Source of the DNA: a virus
Taxonomy: Duplodnaviria; Caudoviricetes
Virus record (IMG/VR): IMGVR_UViG_3300009687_000008
Location: 1 to 64,000 of that record
Direction: 5' to 3' (one strand)
Length of the DNA: 64,000 bases
Below the pieces are notes generated by a model. That model made no database searches. It saw only the letters and a list, made by a program, of their open reading frames with translations, and was not told the origin of the DNA. Made by a program: the position numbers and the translations under genes. This document shows positions 1-12,739 of the stretch, in pieces (the stretch's first letter is position 1; every line of letters starts with the position of its first letter).

Positions 1-88
1 GCACTCCTACTAATGTAGGCAGTTCGTTCCGAGTTTTAGTATCCGTCCCAGATACATAATTTCTTAACGCAAAGTTTTTAATATTCAA
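1..88 (-). mobile_element. Orphan 3' tail of an IS200/IS605 tnpB (omega-RNA-like region), running off the window edge
   Basis: Minus strand reads LNIKNFALRNYVSGTDTKTRNELPTLVGV, resembling recalled TnpB C-terminal tails (INIKNFAL...NELPTLVGV). An in-frame TAA lies at 98-100 and there is no upstream tnpB body. Hairpins at 6-19 and 39-55. Confidence 0.55.
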
Positions 89-117
89 TTTTAAATTTTA
101 ATTTTTGTTATATAATA

Positions 118-126
118 ATAAATATT
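118..126 (-). promoter_or_regulatory. Variant phage promoter motif AATATTTAT
   Basis: One mismatch to the GATATTTAT motif seen before eight minus-strand starts; lies just past the terminator of 165..1265. Confidence 0.4.
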
Positions 127-136
127 AGTAAGCATT

Positions 137-166
137 AAAAAACCCCTCTATTGAGGGGTTATTTTT
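137..166 (-). terminator. Rho-independent terminator
   Basis: Stem AACCCCTC/GAGGGGTT (141-148/153-160), 4-nt loop, U tract on minus, directly after the stop of 165..1265. Confidence 0.8.
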
Positions 167-1265
167 AATCTTCGTCTTCTTCAGACTCTTCTTTCTTTTT
201 TCCTCTTAAGAGTTTGAAATCTTCAGAGTCTAATTTATTATTTTTATTCTTGTCAAGTTTTTTCTGACCACCCTTCAATCCTTCTTCAATTTCTTCTTCC
301 TCTTCAGTTTCAACTTCTTCAACTTCTTCTTTCATAAGTTTTAACATTCTCTTGAAAGCATCTTCGCCAGATTCGGTGATGTTTTTCTTTGTTGAAATAG
401 AATCACTTGATTTGAAACCCCAAAGATGTTTCATCTTTTGAATATCTTCACTTACCAATTGGTTGTTTTTAAAATTAGTGATAACCGCTTCACCGTTCTT
501 AGAATCACCTTCCCAAATCAATCTATATGTGTTTTCACCATCTGTGATTGCGAAAGCTGTTTCATCAATTTTAACTCTTGATGGGACTTTATTAGCAAGT
601 TTTAAAACTTGTTCTTCTGATACTAATTTTCCGTTTGCTTTGAAGATGTTTTTTGAATCTACACCTTTATATTCATTTTCAGCCATTGGTTGAGGAGATT
701 TTTGTGACTTTACAGGTCTTGTGTTATTAGCTTCTTTTTTATATTTTAAATCATTTGTCTTTTTAGCATTTTTCATCATTTTTTGTGCTGTAGGATCATC
801 TGATTTAATTCTTTCTTTATATTTTTTAGTTACTGATTCTGGACCATTTTGAGATGCTAAATCAGCCGTAACTTCCATTCCACTAATACCTACATCATAT
901 CCAGTAGTTTCGATTCTTTCATCTTCATTACTACCGTTTGTTGGTACTTTAGGTGCGTCAATTTTTTCTTTATCATTAGGTGTTTGGTAATCCTTAATCT
1001 TTTTAGCAACTTCTTTGTAGTATGCTTTAGCATCAATACCGTCTTGTTTATTTGCTTTATTAACTTCCTTCATACCGTTAGTAACAGGGTTTTTAAAGCT
1101 TCCACCTTCAGATGTTTTCAATTGACCCATAGGACCAAATTGGTCTTTTTCAGCACCAGAAAGATCACTTTTCTTCTTTGTTCCAAAAGCCACTTCCATG
1201 TCTTCGAAATTTTCGAACAATCTTTCTAAGTTTTCTTTTAATATTTTCTTTAAATCTTTTGACAT
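165..1265 (-). CDS. Hypothetical charged protein, putative head-associated
   Basis: 366-aa ORF preceded by GATATTTAT; acidic C-terminus; I/L-x-E motifs (ILKE, ITES). Confidence 0.75.
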   Translation of the reverse strand: MSKDLKKILKENLERLFENFEDMEVAFGTKKKSDLSGAEKDQFGPMGQLKTSEGGSFKNPVTNGMKEVNKANKQDGIDAKAYYKEVAKKIKDYQTPNDKEKIDAPKVPTNGSNEDERIETTGYDVGISGMEVTADLASQNGPESVTKKYKERIKSDDPTAQKMMKNAKKTNDLKYKKEANNTRPVKSQKSPQPMAENEYKGVDSKNIFKANGKLVSEEQVLKLANKVPSRVKIDETAFAITDGENTYRLIWEGDSKNGEAVITNFKNNQLVSEDIQKMKHLWGFKSSDSISTKKNITESGEDAFKRMLKLMKEEVEEVETEEEEEIEEGLKGGQKKLDKNKNNKLDSEDFKLLRGKKKEESEEDED

Positions 1266-1280
1266 CTTTAATGTTTTACA

Positions 1281-1289
1281 ATAAATATC
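1281..1289 (-). promoter_or_regulatory. Phage promoter motif GATATTTAT
   Basis: Exact motif 15 nt upstream of the ATG at 1265. Confidence 0.6.
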
Positions 1290-1301
1290 TACTAGTTGAT
1301 A

Positions 1302-2912
1302 TTAAGCATTTCTTTTTAATAATTTATAGATTTCAATGAAGGGTTTACCTGTCTCTTTTGAAACCTCATGAATGTTTTTGATAGTCTCATTATCTAACCC
1401 CTCAACATAGGTACCTGGTCCACTCACTGAATCTGATATCTTTAAAGGGTTATCTATTGCACCTTGGTTACAATAAGGAAACTTAGTACACTTCTTAGCT
1501 ATTTTAACATACTTCCCTTTAGGGTTGTATTTAACCTTATTCATTTCATTTATAGGTTCAGTCTCATTAATTGGGTTTAAAATACCTTCATTAGCATCTT
1601 TCTGAACTATAACTCCACCTGTCCAAACAGGTTTCTTAGCTGTTCTCCACTCTCCTTTTTTAGCCGCAAAAGCTGGACCAACAGGAGGGCCATTAGATCC
1701 CCATACAGAACCAAATGTTGTTGTTTCATCTAATTCTTCCTCTTCAATCGGTGGGGGTGTGTAATTATCTTTTACACTATCTAAATTTTTATCGTTAACG
1801 ATTTGATGTTCGTTCAATCTATTGTTAACAATTCTAAATAAATCTTCTTTCTTTAATGTTTTTTTAATACCAGGGACTTTAACACCTGTTTTTTTACTTT
1901 TAGTTTCACCTTTGTTAGGCCCATGAAATGGTCCCCAAAATTTCTCTCCACTAGTAATATCTTTATTTTTAGATAGTGGATCTACTATTTGACCACCATC
2001 CCAAAATGATACATCATCTAAATACCAGCCATCATGGTCTAAATCGGCAAACTCAATACCTGAAACACCTTCTGTTTTATCGGTATTAAATGTTGTAGTG
2101 TGTTCTTCGATAGGACCTGGTTTAGCAACACCTTTATTTTTAGTTAAAGGACCACTTCCCCATGCATTACCTGTGTAAGCACCAACAGAAGCGCCACCTG
2201 CTGCGGCTGTAGTTTCTGTTTTAATTTTCCTTTTTTTCTCATCTTTTTTGAGACCTTTTTCAGATGCTAAAACACCATATCTCTTGTTTGAGTAGTAATC
2301 AGAAAATTCTGATATATGGTCCATAGCAATTTCTTTAGCTTTATCTATGTTGTCACCAACATGTTCTTTCTCAATCTTAACACCAATTTTAATTTCTTTT
2401 TTAATGTCTTCAATTGATACTTTATGTTTTTTAGCTAAATCTTTAATTGATAATTTATCAGCTTTACCACCTTTTATTTCATTAGATTCTACCTTAATGT
2501 CTTTGATTTTAACTGATTTAAAATTTTTAGTTACTTGGTCTGTCTTAACACCACTAGATTTCATCGAACTCGATGTTGATGAAGAAATCTTTGTAGTTTT
2601 AGGCATTGATTTACTAATATTAGAAGGTGTTTGTTTAATAGCTGTTTTAACGGCTGAAGAATTTTCACCTTCGAACATTTTGTTAGTCTCATCGTAAAGA
2701 TCAGTTTTAACGTCAGGCATTAATTGGTAGCGGTCGATTCCAGGTATTACACCTAAAGTTCTACCATCATCCCACTTAACGTGAATAATACCCATCCCAT
2801 CAACAAGACGAATGGTACCTTCTGTACCTGGGGTAATAGGATTAGGATCGTCTGTCATCGAGACCATCCTAATTCTCATTCCCTCTTTAGCGTTTGGATC
2901 TTTTTGATTCAT
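1302..2912 (-). CDS. Mosaic protein with N-terminal DUF4314-like and internal DUF5661-like domains
   Basis: RIRMVSMTDDPNPITPGTEGTIRLVDGMGIIHVKWDDGRTLGVIPGIDRY (DUF4314-like); GVKIEKEH...AKEIAMDHISEFSDYY (DUF5661-like). Confidence 0.65.
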   Translation of the reverse strand: MNQKDPNAKEGMRIRMVSMTDDPNPITPGTEGTIRLVDGMGIIHVKWDDGRTLGVIPGIDRYQLMPDVKTDLYDETNKMFEGENSSAVKTAIKQTPSNISKSMPKTTKISSSTSSSMKSSGVKTDQVTKNFKSVKIKDIKVESNEIKGGKADKLSIKDLAKKHKVSIEDIKKEIKIGVKIEKEHVGDNIDKAKEIAMDHISEFSDYYSNKRYGVLASEKGLKKDEKKRKIKTETTAAAGGASVGAYTGNAWGSGPLTKNKGVAKPGPIEEHTTTFNTDKTEGVSGIEFADLDHDGWYLDDVSFWDGGQIVDPLSKNKDITSGEKFWGPFHGPNKGETKSKKTGVKVPGIKKTLKKEDLFRIVNNRLNEHQIVNDKNLDSVKDNYTPPPIEEEELDETTTFGSVWGSNGPPVGPAFAAKKGEWRTAKKPVWTGGVIVQKDANEGILNPINETEPINEMNKVKYNPKGKYVKIAKKCTKFPYCNQGAIDNPLKISDSVSGPGTYVEGLDNETIKNIHEVSKETGKPFIEIYKLLKRNA

Positions 2913-3816: not shown

Positions 3817-4131
3817 TTATTTAATTACGATTTTACGACCAATCATTTCACTAATCACCATACCAACTAAATCATTAATTTCATCGAATTCACTAATTAG
3901 TTTATCTTCTACCTTAACTTGTGGTACATAATCTTTACCACCATTTTCTTTTAGCCATTCCCACATCTCATCGTTACCTTCCATCTCCACATTCTCATAT
4001 ACAATACCAACATGGTCTAATTTAGTTTTTAATTCTTTACAGGCTGGACAATGTTCCATTGTGTAAAGTGTAATATCTTTATGGTTGTTATTACCGATAT
4101 CTTCTAATAATTTTTGTACTTGTTGATTCAT
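3817..4131 (-). CDS. Glutaredoxin / NrdH-like redoxin
   Basis: TLYTMEHCPACKELK CxxC motif and YVPQV cis-Pro motif. Confidence 0.85.
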   Translation of the reverse strand: MNQQVQKLLEDIGNNNHKDITLYTMEHCPACKELKTKLDHVGIVYENVEMEGNDEMWEWLKENGGKDYVPQVKVEDKLISEFDEINDLVGMVISEMIGRKIVIK

Positions 4132-6941: not shown

Positions 6942-7255
6942 TATTTTCCTTCTAATGCTTGAATTTCCTTATCAATTTCAGATTGACGATTCACGTCTAG
7001 AATCTTTCTGTCTGTTGATTGGATCATTCTTTTTTCAGCTTTCAAACCTTCAATAGTTAACATTTTTTTCAACTCTTCTTTTGTAATGATACGTGACCTT
7101 ACTGTTGAGTCTTCAGCTGTTATTTGAGTAGAAAGTTCTTCTTTAACTTTCTCTATCTTACCATTTGTCGTACATGTCTTAAAGAACATAATCAAAACTA
7201 ATGGTAACATGATTCTTGTGGACCAAGTGTCTAAAAAATTTACAATGTTTTTCAT
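6941..7255 (-). CDS. Small membrane protein, possibly a lipoprotein; start reassigned to ATG 7255
   Basis: MKNIVNF... hydrophobic stretch ending FFKTC; GATATTTAT at 7272-7280 lies inside the track's longer ORF, which favours the downstream start. Confidence 0.6.
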   Translation of the reverse strand: MKNIVNFLDTWSTRIMLPLVLIMFFKTCTTNGKIEKVKEELSTQITAEDSTVRSRIITKEELKKMLTIEGLKAEKRMIQSTDRKILDVNRQSEIDKEIQALEGK

Positions 7256-7882: not shown

Positions 7883-7914
7883 CAAATATATAGATAAATA
7901 TTTATTCCACCAAA
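7883..7914 (-). promoter_or_regulatory. Bacteroidota-type promoter TTTG-N20-TATATTTG
   Basis: Matches the -33 TTTG / -7 TAnnTTTG consensus; points at the structured non-coding region. Confidence 0.6.
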
Positions 7915-12099: not shown

Positions 12100-12263
12100 T
12101 TTTTTCTAATTAATTCATATATTATGTGAAGTGGCCATAATGTTACTATCATTAATGAACCAATCACGTTTTCTGATTGAATCTTCCTCTTATTTGAGAA
12201 GTAGTTCAACCAAATAATCCCTAAAAGGACATATAACGTCCATATTCCAAATAATTTTATCAT
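12096..12263 (-). CDS. Small two-helix membrane protein (55 aa), absent from the ORF track
   Basis: MIKLFGIWTLYVLLGIIWLNYFSNKRKIQSENVIGSLMIVTLWPLHIIYELIRKK; 4-nt overlaps with both neighbours. Confidence 0.75.
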   Translation of the reverse strand: MIKLFGIWTLYVLLGIIWLNYFSNKRKIQSENVIGSLMIVTLWPLHIIYELIRKK

Positions 12264-12739
12264 ATATCTTTAATAATTTTATCTAAAATATCCTTATTAT
12301 AAAGGTTATAAACGGGTATCTTTAAATCTTCAGCCATTCTTAAGGCTTGTCCCGTACCTCCTGTGGCTTTACCATCTTTAGTCCAACAAACAATAAAATC
12401 TGTGGGTGATTTCAAATCTAAACCTAACACTTGGTGACAGTTTCTAGCCATTAATTTTTTGGCTCCATAAGATAATCTACCCCAATTAGGGTGATATTTT
12501 TGAGCCATTTCAAAAGCTTCGGGTGTTGGATTGAAAAGTAGAGAAGTATTACCATTAAAACCCCTCCAAGGGAGATAAATTTCCTTCTTTTCAGCATGTT
12601 CTTCAAAGAAAGAGTCTGCTCCTGGTGCTCCACCTGACCTTAAAGTATAACCCTTTTTGTTTAAGTGTTCTACTATAGTTTTAATGTCATTCTTTAATTC
12701 AGTAGGTGTTTCTCTAGAACCAATGCCGGTATAAATCAT
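12260..12739 (-). CDS. SLOG-superfamily (DprA/Smf-like Rossmann) protein
   Basis: YTGIGSRETP, LRSGGAPGAD, ARNCHQV, GGTGQALRMA. Confidence 0.8.
   Translation of the reverse strand: MIYTGIGSRETPTELKNDIKTIVEHLNKKGYTLRSGGAPGADSFFEEHAEKKEIYLPWRGFNGNTSLLFNPTPEAFEMAQKYHPNWGRLSYGAKKLMARNCHQVLGLDLKSPTDFIVCWTKDGKATGGTGQALRMAEDLKIPVYNLYNKDILDKIIKDI

What the first reader, a model, noticed from the sequence alone, without database searches (positions are those of the whole stretch)
1..126. Orphan tnpB 3' tail (omega-RNA-like) directly behind a phage promoter
Seen: minus-strand 88..1 translates as LNIKNFALRNYVSGTDTKTRNELPTLVGV. It is preceded by an in-frame TAA (98-100), a promoter-like AATATTTAT (118-126) and the terminator of the upstream gene, so no tnpB body is present. 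Hairpins occur at 6-19 and 39-55; the latter has a G-U pair on minus. Established: IS200/IS605 TnpB guide RNAs (omega-RNAs) are transcribed from the tnpB 3' end through the transposon right end, with the guide taken from flanking DNA. Inference: the peptide match to TnpB tails is from memory. This could be a protein-less guide-RNA locus expressed from a phage promoter that programs a TnpB in trans, akin to phage mini-CRISPR arrays, or just a transposon scar.
Basis: partly seen in the sequence, partly recalled or inferred. Interest (0 to 1): 0.75.

Follow-up and report, generated by a model that had tools for sequence, protein, structure and literature searches.

The report
Gene-less TnpB guide-RNA stub in phage
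The first 87 bases of this giant-phage contig are the front part of a TnpB transposon's guide-RNA scaffold, with no nuclease gene and no transposon left end. This is a real but already known kind of leftover or stand-alone guide module, and the contig ends before the part that would show what it targets.

Summary
Window 1-87 (minus strand) is the 5' two-thirds of an IS200/IS605 TnpB omega-RNA scaffold.

- It is 98.9% identical to nine loci in phage-like and Bacteroidota contigs (seven distinct copies).
- It matches positions 1-86 of a 135-nt covariance model built without it (97.7 bits, E 2.8e-22).
- Its peptide is identical to the TnpB tail in a sister-phage contig.

No tnpB body, tnpA, left end (LE) or right end (RE) is present anywhere in the 73-kb contig. 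Window base 1 is the contig end, so the last third of the scaffold, the right end and the guide cannot be seen.

It contains the family's insertion motif TTTAT, found at 51 of 57 left-end junctions. The window diverges from a near-identical element-free phage directly after it.

The most likely reading is a recently formed, immobile deletion derivative of an inserted element. It may still act as a guide-only homing cassette using TnpB supplied in trans, but this cannot be tested here.

Stand-alone omega-RNAs and omega-RNA-bearing PATEs are already published. This scan has also noted similar, more complete phage cases on other DNA. It is a new member of a known kind.

The parts
1..87 (-). 5' 64% of a type-A TnpB omega-RNA scaffold (model positions 1-86 of 135), cut at its 3' side by the contig end
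   Evidence: CM R1 hit at 97.7 bits, E 2.8e-22, flagged as cut at 3'. 98.9% identity over 87 nt to L023, L027, L031, L035, L036, L041, L043, L045 and L053. Alignments A1 and A2.
39..55 (-). Helix 1 of the scaffold: a 7-bp stem including one U-G pair, with a 3-nt loop
   Evidence: RNAalifold and CM structure. Across 53 copies, 5 of 7 pairs show changes on both sides and 96.8% of cells are paired.
3..23 (-). Inner hairpin of helix 2 (ACUGCCUAC-AUUA-GUAGGAGU)
   Evidence: Compensatory variants such as CCCAC/GUGGG, CCUGU/ACAGG and CCAAC/GUUGG are seen in other copies.
27..32 (-). 5' strand (UCGGAA) of the outer part of helix 2. Its partner (UUCCGA) lies beyond the contig end.
   Evidence: Structure. 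Pairs 67-72 with 121-126 covary (GC/AU, AU/GC).
86..100 (-). Start of homology to tnpB (TGAATATT...), a fortuitous TTG at 88-86, and the in-frame TAA at 100-98
   Evidence: The homology boundary lies within 10 nt of the boundaries in the tnpB-less copies L017 and L036/L045.
88..117 (-). AT-rich spacer of about 30 nt between the TAM and the scaffold. It has no LE hairpin. It may derive from the element's own tnpB-upstream leader (inconclusive).
   Evidence: No LE motif in the window. Similarity to the type-A tnpB-upstream region: dinucleotide-shuffle p 0.01-0.18, and only 0.4% of window tiles score as high. Similarity to the L005 5' UTR is not significant.
118..126 (-). AATATTTAT, containing the family TAM TTTAT (122..118). 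The window and the element-free sister phage L005 diverge directly after it.
   Evidence: 51 of 57 LE junctions have TTTAT 4-10 nt before the LE motif, against a 5% background. Divergence point shown. The motif is conserved in L005 and L006.
141..160 (.). Bidirectional intrinsic-terminator hairpin of the upstream 366-aa gene. It is phage sequence, not a transposon end.
   Evidence: The same hairpin is present in element-free L005.
165..1265 (-). Upstream phage gene (366 aa, no Pfam family), used as the anchor for finding sister phages
   Evidence: It is 99% identical to a gene in L005 and 61% to one in L006.

Best explanation
Window 1-87(-) is the front part of the guide-RNA (omega-RNA) scaffold of a 'type-A' IS200/IS605 TnpB element. 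That family is common in Bacteroidota and their phages.

The element probably inserted at the TTTAT TAM in a variable intergenic spot, just downstream of the terminator of the 366-aa gene. It then lost its left-end hairpin, its promoter and nearly all of tnpB by deletion. What remains is spacer plus scaffold.

Without LE and TnpA it cannot transpose. Without tnpB it cannot cut. On the evidence available it is most likely a young transposon remnant with no demonstrated role of its own.

The contig stops inside it because the same 85-nt stretch occurs in other copies in the sample (inference).

Shown: identity, truncation, absence of tnpB, tnpA and LE, the RNA structure, and the TAM.

Inferred: insertion followed by deletion, and a repeat-induced assembly break.
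For: - Homology to bona fide tnpB 3' ends and their downstream right ends.
- CM match to model positions 1-86 of 135, cut by the contig end.
- Structure supported by covariation: 98.6% of cells paired against 36-42% when partners are slid, and 26 of 36 pairs show changes on both sides.
- No tnpB, tnpA, RE or LE anywhere in the 73-kb contig.
- The sister phage L005 (99% identical neighbouring gene) lacks the element and diverges right after AATATTTAT.
- TTTAT is the family TAM. An empty-site comparison of L085 with L005 confirms it.
- No recognisable promoter upstream.
- Deletion derivatives are frequent in this family. L017 and L036/L045 are internal deletions. L029, L074, L071 and L156 lack LE.
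- Many other contigs also break inside this scaffold: L024, L030, L032, L051 and L053.
Against: - The visible 87 nt are essentially identical to the consensus of intact copies. There is no decay that would mark a dead relic. The whole family is about 96% identical, however, so this mainly says the event is recent.
- The 5' boundary falls within 10 nt of the boundaries of the independent tnpB-less copies L017 and L036/L045, and the TAM junction is preserved. Both fit selection for a working guide cassette as well as chance.
- The right end and guide are unseen, so completeness is unknown.
Confidence: 0.5

Rival explanations
1. It is a working guide-only homing cassette. The locus is transcribed by read-through or from an unrecognised phage promoter. 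The RNA folds into the omega-RNA scaffold, continues through the unseen right end into a guide copied from the adjacent phage DNA, and loads TnpB made by a full-length type-A element elsewhere in the phage, in a co-infecting sister phage, or in the Bacteroidota host. The complex cuts sister-phage genomes that have TTTAT directly followed by the guide sequence, that is, the empty allele such as L005. Recombinational repair then copies the cassette in. LE, TnpA and tnpB in cis are dispensable for this route.
For: - Stand-alone omega-RNAs work in trans with compatible effectors (PMC10691335, read). PATEs 'often encode omega-RNAs' that need TnpB in trans (PMC10055086).
- A sister-phage contig shares 524 nt at 100% identity with L005. 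It carries a type-A tnpB whose tail peptide is identical to the window's, open over the 322 aa visible.
- The cassette sits exactly behind a TAM, which is what homing logic requires.
- In the same phage group, the guide of the L085 element matches a TTTAT-flanked site in L005.
- The scaffold shows no decay.
Against: - No promoter was found. If the spacer is IS-derived, the native tnpB promoter kept by mini-elements L017 and L036 is missing here.
- No TnpB in the 73 kb available.
- The right end and guide are not observable, so the key prediction cannot be checked.
- There are no expression data.
Confidence: 0.3
2. It is an assembly artefact. The last ~87 nt come from an abundant IS copy in another genome and were joined to the phage contig through a shared AT-rich k-mer.
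For: - The element sits at the very end of the contig.
- The contig ends at a position that varies among copies.
- Several other contigs also break inside this repeat.
Against: - About 30 nt of unique spacer separate the point where the window leaves L005 from the start of the scaffold. A simple k-mer join between L005-like sequence and an IS does not reproduce this junction.
- Any de Bruijn join still needs a shared word at least as long as the k-mer, so the phage must hold a real piece of the scaffold (inference).
- Sister phages demonstrably carry these elements.
Confidence: 0.07
3. It is the start of an ordinary small protein-coding gene that begins at TTG 88 and merely resembles a TnpB tail.
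For: An open frame with a TTG start runs off the contig.
Against: - By homology the frame would end about 16 codons beyond the contig end, at the TnpB stop.
- Nucleotide identity of 98.9%, including third codon positions, and covarying stems point to an RNA and transposon origin.
- No Pfam family matches the peptide.
Confidence: 0.02

Closest known systems
Stand-alone omega-RNAs of OMEGA (TnpB/IscB) systems (Altae-Tran et al. 2021, as summarised in PMC10691335)
   Same: A guide-RNA scaffold derived from a tnpB 3' end, with no effector or transposase gene next to it. Compatible TnpB genes exist in related genomes.
   Different: The published cases are described as mobilised and lie in the same genome as an effector. 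Here only 22% of the phage genome is available, no effector is seen, LE is absent, and the right end and guide are not observable.
PATEs (palindrome-associated transposable elements) of IS200/IS605 that carry omega-RNAs (Meers et al., PMC10055086; PATE concept from PMC3119063, which I did not read)
   Same: A protein-less derivative of an IS200/IS605 element that retains the omega-RNA region and sits at the family TAM.
   Different: A PATE keeps both LE and RE hairpins and is mobilised by TnpA. The window copy has no LE hairpin. True PATE-like relatives of the same family are L017, L036/L045, L078, L081 and L143.
Full-length type-A IS200/IS605 elements, such as L015 (tnpA + tnpB) and the tnpB in sister-phage contig IMGVR_UViG_3300025861_000504 (L018/L028)
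   Same: Scaffold identity is 93-99% and the tail peptide is identical. The TAM (TTTAT) is the same.
   Different: Those copies have LE, a Bacteroidota-type promoter (TATATTTG), a tnpB of about 392 aa and a right end ending in ...GGGTAGTTCAC. The window keeps only scaffold positions 1-86.
Free-standing homing endonuclease cassettes of T4-like phages (Seg/Mob; reviewed in PMC13565253)
   Same: If functional, it would spread between co-infecting phages by cutting the empty allele and being copied in during repair. It also occupies a variable intergenic slot between conserved genes.
   Different: Recognition would be RNA-guided, and the nuclease would be supplied in trans rather than encoded in the cassette.

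Membership tests
IS200/IS605 TnpB omega-RNA scaffold | Sequence homology to the 3' end of bona fide tnpB genes, continuing into the transposon right end | tested here: met
   TnpB residues 342-378 at E 1.2e-12. TnpB domains confirmed in the reference protein. 98.9% DNA identity over 87 nt. The right-end portion lies beyond the contig end.
IS200/IS605 TnpB omega-RNA scaffold | Conserved RNA secondary structure supported by covariation | tested here: met
   In 53 copies, 98.6% of cells are paired against 36-42% when partners are slid, and 26 of 36 pairs show double changes. The alignment was fitted to the model. The window holds helix 1 and the 5' strand and inner hairpin of helix 2.
IS200/IS605 TnpB omega-RNA scaffold | Complete scaffold ending at the right end, followed by a guide of about 16-20 nt from flanking DNA | not testable with these tools
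   Window base 1 is the contig end. Model positions 87-135 and the guide are missing. No continuation was found.
IS200/IS605 TnpB omega-RNA scaffold | Element lies 3' of the family TAM | tested here: met
   TTTAT lies at 122..118, about 30 nt before the scaffold. The window diverges from the empty allele L005 right after it. The TAM was defined from 51 of 57 LE junctions and one empty-site pair.
Autonomous or tnpB-bearing IS200/IS605 element | tnpB (and/or tnpA) encoded in cis | tested here: not met
   An in-frame TAA and a terminator lie upstream. There is no PF07282 hit, no TnpB beyond the tail and no TnpA in the 73-kb contig.
PATE / non-autonomous IS200/IS605 mini-element | Left end with a subterminal hairpin (GAGCGTAAAACCC... 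in this family) | tested here: not met
   No match with up to 2 mismatches in the window. The only hairpin upstream is the phage terminator, which is also present in element-free L005.
PATE / non-autonomous IS200/IS605 mini-element | Right-end hairpin present | not testable with these tools
   It lies beyond the contig end. No RE occurs elsewhere in the contig.
Stand-alone (trans-acting) omega-RNA | Compatible effector in the same genome or cell | tested here: inconclusive
   None in the 22% of the genome available. A sister-phage contig carries a tnpB with an identical tail. Bacteroidota MAGs carry the same scaffold.
Stand-alone (trans-acting) omega-RNA | Transcribed and used by TnpB | not testable with these tools
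   No expression data are available. No promoter consensus was found.

The most novel reading that the evidence does not exclude
A giant Bacteroidota phage keeps a minimal cassette stripped of LE, tnpA and tnpB, leaving only 'TAM | omega-RNA - RE | target'. The cassette no longer transposes at all. It persists purely as an RNA-guided homing element, or as a weapon against rival phages, borrowing TnpB from sister phages or the host. The recurrent tnpB-less scaffolds in related viral contigs would then be a lineage of guide-only gene drives rather than debris.
Probability: 0.2. Interest if true: 0.6.

Novelty: new member of a known kind. Interest (0 to 1): 0.33.

Why it matters
If the cassette is active, it would be a natural case of a phage carrying only the guide half of an RNA-guided nuclease system and relying on a nuclease supplied by others. 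That bears on how TnpB elements spread among phages and on how guide and effector became separable before CRISPR arrays evolved.

As it stands, the locus adds one incomplete example to a phenomenon already described in bacteria and seen repeatedly in this scan. The more useful by-products are these:
- a well-supported 135-nt omega-RNA model, which drew no Rfam match from the window copy;
- the TTTAT TAM of a large element family in Bacteroidota and their phages;
- an empty-site and filled-site pair in sister phages.

Tried and rejected
- **Rfam.** Nothing at gathering threshold over the whole window. The E-value mode on 1-400 found only terminator-like leader hits.
- **tRNA and tmRNA.** None in the window.
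- **Pfam on the 32-aa peptide.** No hit, because the peptide is too short and lies outside the Pfam domain models.
- **Continuation of the phage beyond base 1.**
  - An exact 35-mer across the junction found nothing in viral contigs.
  - Relatives of the L005 amidase returned only L005's own contig as a close match.
  - L024 starts inside an identical scaffold, but its flank shows no link to this phage.
  - tblastx of L028 against the phage relatives found only the tail.
- **Per-column conservation along the tnpB 3' 400 nt.** This was meant to locate the RNA's 5' end. The copies are too similar overall (85-100%) for a clear step.
- **Origin of the 30-nt spacer.** Similarity to the L005 5' UTR is not significant. 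Similarity to the element's own tnpB-upstream leader is suggestive only.
- **AATATTTAT as a repeated phage promoter.** It is not enriched.
- **Cultured phages.** None carries this scaffold. TnpB relatives of under 60% identity occur in 430 phage records.
- **This scan's index.** No look-alike sequence was found.

Full report
**Where the finding sits.** The window is bases 1-64000 of a 73,143-nt IMG/VR viral contig that CheckV rates 22% complete. Relatives found through the neighbouring gene reach 353-362 kb (L007 and L009), so this is a fragment of a giant phage. A TTTG-N20-TATATTTG promoter at 7914..7883 (sequence) points to a Bacteroidota host. So does the occurrence of the element family in Flavobacteriaceae, Flammeovirgaceae and Saprospiraceae MAGs.

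**The observation.**
- the open frame on the minus strand from 88 to the contig end;
- the in-frame TAA at 98-100;
- AATATTTAT at 118-126;
- the terminator hairpin at 141-160 behind the 366-aa gene (165-1265);
- hairpins at 6-19 and 39-55.

**It is a TnpB tail and omega-RNA scaffold.** A 21-mer from the region found five viral loci. Aligning them shows that four have, directly upstream, the zinc-ribbon cysteine pair and the HDRDINAAVNI motif of a TnpB C-terminus. All five continue about 50 nt beyond the window's end to ...GGGTGGGTAGTTCAC and then diverge.

- L015 is a textbook IS200/IS605 element. It has a 132-aa Y1 transposase (PF01797) and a 392-aa TnpB (PF12323, PF01385, PF07282), and the tnpB stop codon lies 5 nt before the right end.
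- That TnpB matches window 2-112(-) over residues 342-378 at E 1.2e-12. Nothing else in the 73 kb matches it.
- Wider pattern scans found about 30 distinct copies of this "type-A" scaffold in viral, metagenome and Bacteroidota MAG contigs.
- The window's 87 nt are 98.9% identical to nine of these loci, seven distinct copies.

**RNA structure.** I built a covariance model from 21 copies, excluding the window. It has 135 positions and 36 base pairs.

- The model matches window 1-86(-) as positions 1-86, at 97.7 bits and E 2.8e-22, flagged as cut at the 3' side.
- It finds no other copy in the window, in the rest of the contig (L174), or in the relatives L005-L013.
- On 53 copies of two scaffold subtypes, 98.6% of cells pair, against 36-42% when partners are slid by 1-3 columns.
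- In the same set, 26 of 36 pairs show changes on both sides. The alignment was fitted to the model, which favours the structure somewhat.
The UCGGAA at 27-32 is the 5' strand of the outer helix 2, whose partner lies beyond the contig end.
- The window copy drew no Rfam match.

**What is missing.** The 73-kb contig has none of the following:
- a PF07282 hit;
- a TnpA;
- a right end;
- the family's left-end motif, even with up to 2 mismatches.

The only hairpin upstream of the scaffold is the phage terminator. It is also present in L005, a contig whose copy of the 366-aa gene is 99% identical and which lacks the element. The copy is therefore tnpB-less and also LE-less. It does not meet the definition of a PATE and cannot be moved by TnpA.

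**The "promoter".** AATATTTAT is not enriched in the window, with 7 occurrences against 5.4 expected. No sigma-70-like site lies on the minus strand between the terminator and the scaffold. No TAnnTTTG box occurs in window 1-1900.

The motif is conserved at the same place in L005 and in the more distant L006, so it may have a phage function. It also contains TTTAT, and several results identify TTTAT as the family's transposon-adjacent motif:
- At 51 of 57 distinct left-end junctions, TTTAT ends 4-10 nt (mode 6) before the LE motif. The background rate is 5%.
- Four of those junctions carry the same 9-mer, AATATTTAT.
- L085 is a second region of the 18-kb contig that also holds L018/L028, and it is 100% identical to L005 over 524 nt. 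It carries a full element whose LE abuts ...ATATTTATA and whose RE abuts TAAATTTGAGAG.
- In L005 that same sequence follows CCTTTAT. The element-free phage therefore carries TAM plus target for the guide of its sister's element.

The window and L005 part company directly after AATATTTAT(TA). This fits an insertion at this TAM. TTTAT is common in AT-rich DNA, so I give this moderate weight.

**The spacer.** About 30 AT-rich nucleotides (88-117) lie between the TAM and the scaffold.

- They are not significantly similar to the 5' UTR that follows the motif in L005.
- They resemble the stretch just upstream of the tnpB promoter in type-A elements. An 11-nt identical block and an 8-nt identical block are followed by GAA, which would place the deletion junction at a TGAA microhomology.
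- The statistics are only suggestive. Dinucleotide-shuffle p ranges from 0.01 to 0.18, and 0.4% of window tiles score as high.
- If this reading is right, the native Bacteroidota-type promoter (TATATTTG) was deleted together with tnpB.

**Comparison with other tnpB-less copies.**

- In L017 (the same contig as L022), the tnpB start codon plus five codons are fused to the scaffold.
- In L036/L045 eleven codons are kept and the 3' junction lies 8 nt further upstream. The flank differs from L017's, so this mini-element has moved.
- Both L017 and L036/L045 keep the LE region and the tnpB promoter.
- L029 starts about 27 nt later and has no LE motif in the 1,025 nt of contig upstream of it.
- Of 65 distinct scaffolds scored, 32 have a long tnpB frame, 10 are cut by contig ends and 23 lack one.
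- The 23 include pseudogenes, about nine "LE + TTG/TAnnTTTG promoter + scaffold + RE" mini-elements, and LE-less stubs such as L074, L071, L156, L129 and L116.

The window belongs to this decay and derivative series. Its 5' boundary (TGAATATT) lies within 10 nt of the boundaries in L017 and L036/L045. That could reflect selection for a whole scaffold or AT-rich microhomology.

**Why the contig ends here.** Several other contigs also begin or end inside this scaffold (L024, L030, L032, L051 and L053). The window's last base falls on a position that varies among copies (GGAGTG followed by C, T, A or G). I infer a repeat-induced assembly break, which implies that other copies exist in the same sample.

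**Trans partner.** The sister-phage contig IMGVR_UViG_3300025861_000504 starts inside a type-A tnpB. The frame is open for all 322 visible codons, and its tail is identical to the window's peptide. TnpB is thus available in this phage lineage and in candidate hosts. No TnpB is shown for this phage itself.

**Mechanism and odds.** The identity of the sequence is secure, at about 0.9 or higher. On function:

| Reading | Odds |
|---|---|
| Young, immobile remnant with no shown role | 0.5 |
| Guide-only homing cassette using TnpB in trans | 0.3 |
| Assembly artefact | 0.07 |
| Ordinary small gene | 0.02 |

For the homing-cassette reading, LE, TnpA and cis tnpB are all dispensable, and a preserved TAM junction is exactly what is needed. 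The decisive feature is the guide, which lies beyond the contig end.

**What is known.** Stand-alone omega-RNAs that lack an effector and work in trans are described in PMC10691335. Meers et al. state that PATEs often encode omega-RNAs that must be used in trans by TnpB from other elements (PMC10055086). Homing between co-infecting phages is discussed in PMC13565253. tblastn with the L015 TnpB found relatives of under 60% identity in 430 of 50,697 cultured-phage records, but none of those records carries this scaffold. Earlier notes of this scan list several more complete phage cases on other DNA. I used them only as leads.

**Verdict.** It is a new, incomplete member of a known kind, of modest interest.

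Noticed in passing
L085:1131-2457 versus L005:11337-12306: A sister phage is 100% identical to L005 over 524 nt and carries a full tnpB element. Its LE abuts one TTTAT site (L005 ~11380) and its RE abuts the sequence after a second TTTAT site (L005 ~11782). The 402 nt between them, most of a 148-aa Nudix-like ORF, are absent. L005 itself holds TAM plus target for that element's guide.
   Followed up: partly
L078, L081, L143, L096 (~9675), L115, L103, L086, L147 (viral contigs): These are protein-less mini-elements built as LE hairpin + 50-65 nt holding a Bacteroidota-type promoter (TTG...TAnnTTTG) + omega-RNA scaffold + RE. In L147 and L165 the promoter box sits 6-7 nt before the scaffold start, which suggests dedicated guide-RNA genes.
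   Followed up: partly
L166, L145, L060, L058, L076, L141, L134, L122: Single-hairpin units of about 45 nt begin like the LE (GAGCGTAAAACCC...) and end like the RE (...GTGGGTGGGTAGTTCAC), with no scaffold. They look like minimal LE/RE hybrid (REP-like) derivatives of the same family.
   Followed up: no
L005:7102-8009 versus L006:~6975-7100 and window 88-165: The slot after the 366-aa gene's terminator is variable. L006 goes straight to the 179-aa gene homologue, L005 has an Amidase_2 gene (276 aa) inserted, and the window has the omega-RNA stub.
   Followed up: partly
L044:~3897-4014: A second, solitary RE hairpin ending in ...GGGTAGTTCAC lies about 100 nt downstream of the RE of a full type-A element.
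   Followed up: no
L144:4006-4152 and 12230-12376: Two tnpB-less scaffold copies share at least 260 nt of identical upstream sequence but have different downstream flanks. A larger repeated unit appears to carry the guide module.
   Followed up: no
L017:3834-5063: The 128.5-kb contig that holds the type-A mini-element also encodes an unrelated 409-aa TnpB-like protein about 2 kb upstream. The contig also has T9SS-tail and YqeY-like genes, so it may be bacterial rather than viral.
   Followed up: no
L110, L128, L169, L156, L078/L098 versus window 10.2-10.5 kb, 26.4-26.9 kb and 50.8-58.8 kb: Several viral contigs that carry elements of this RE family share 64-84% nucleotide identity with genes of this window. 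Relatives of this phage are frequent carriers of the family.
   Followed up: no
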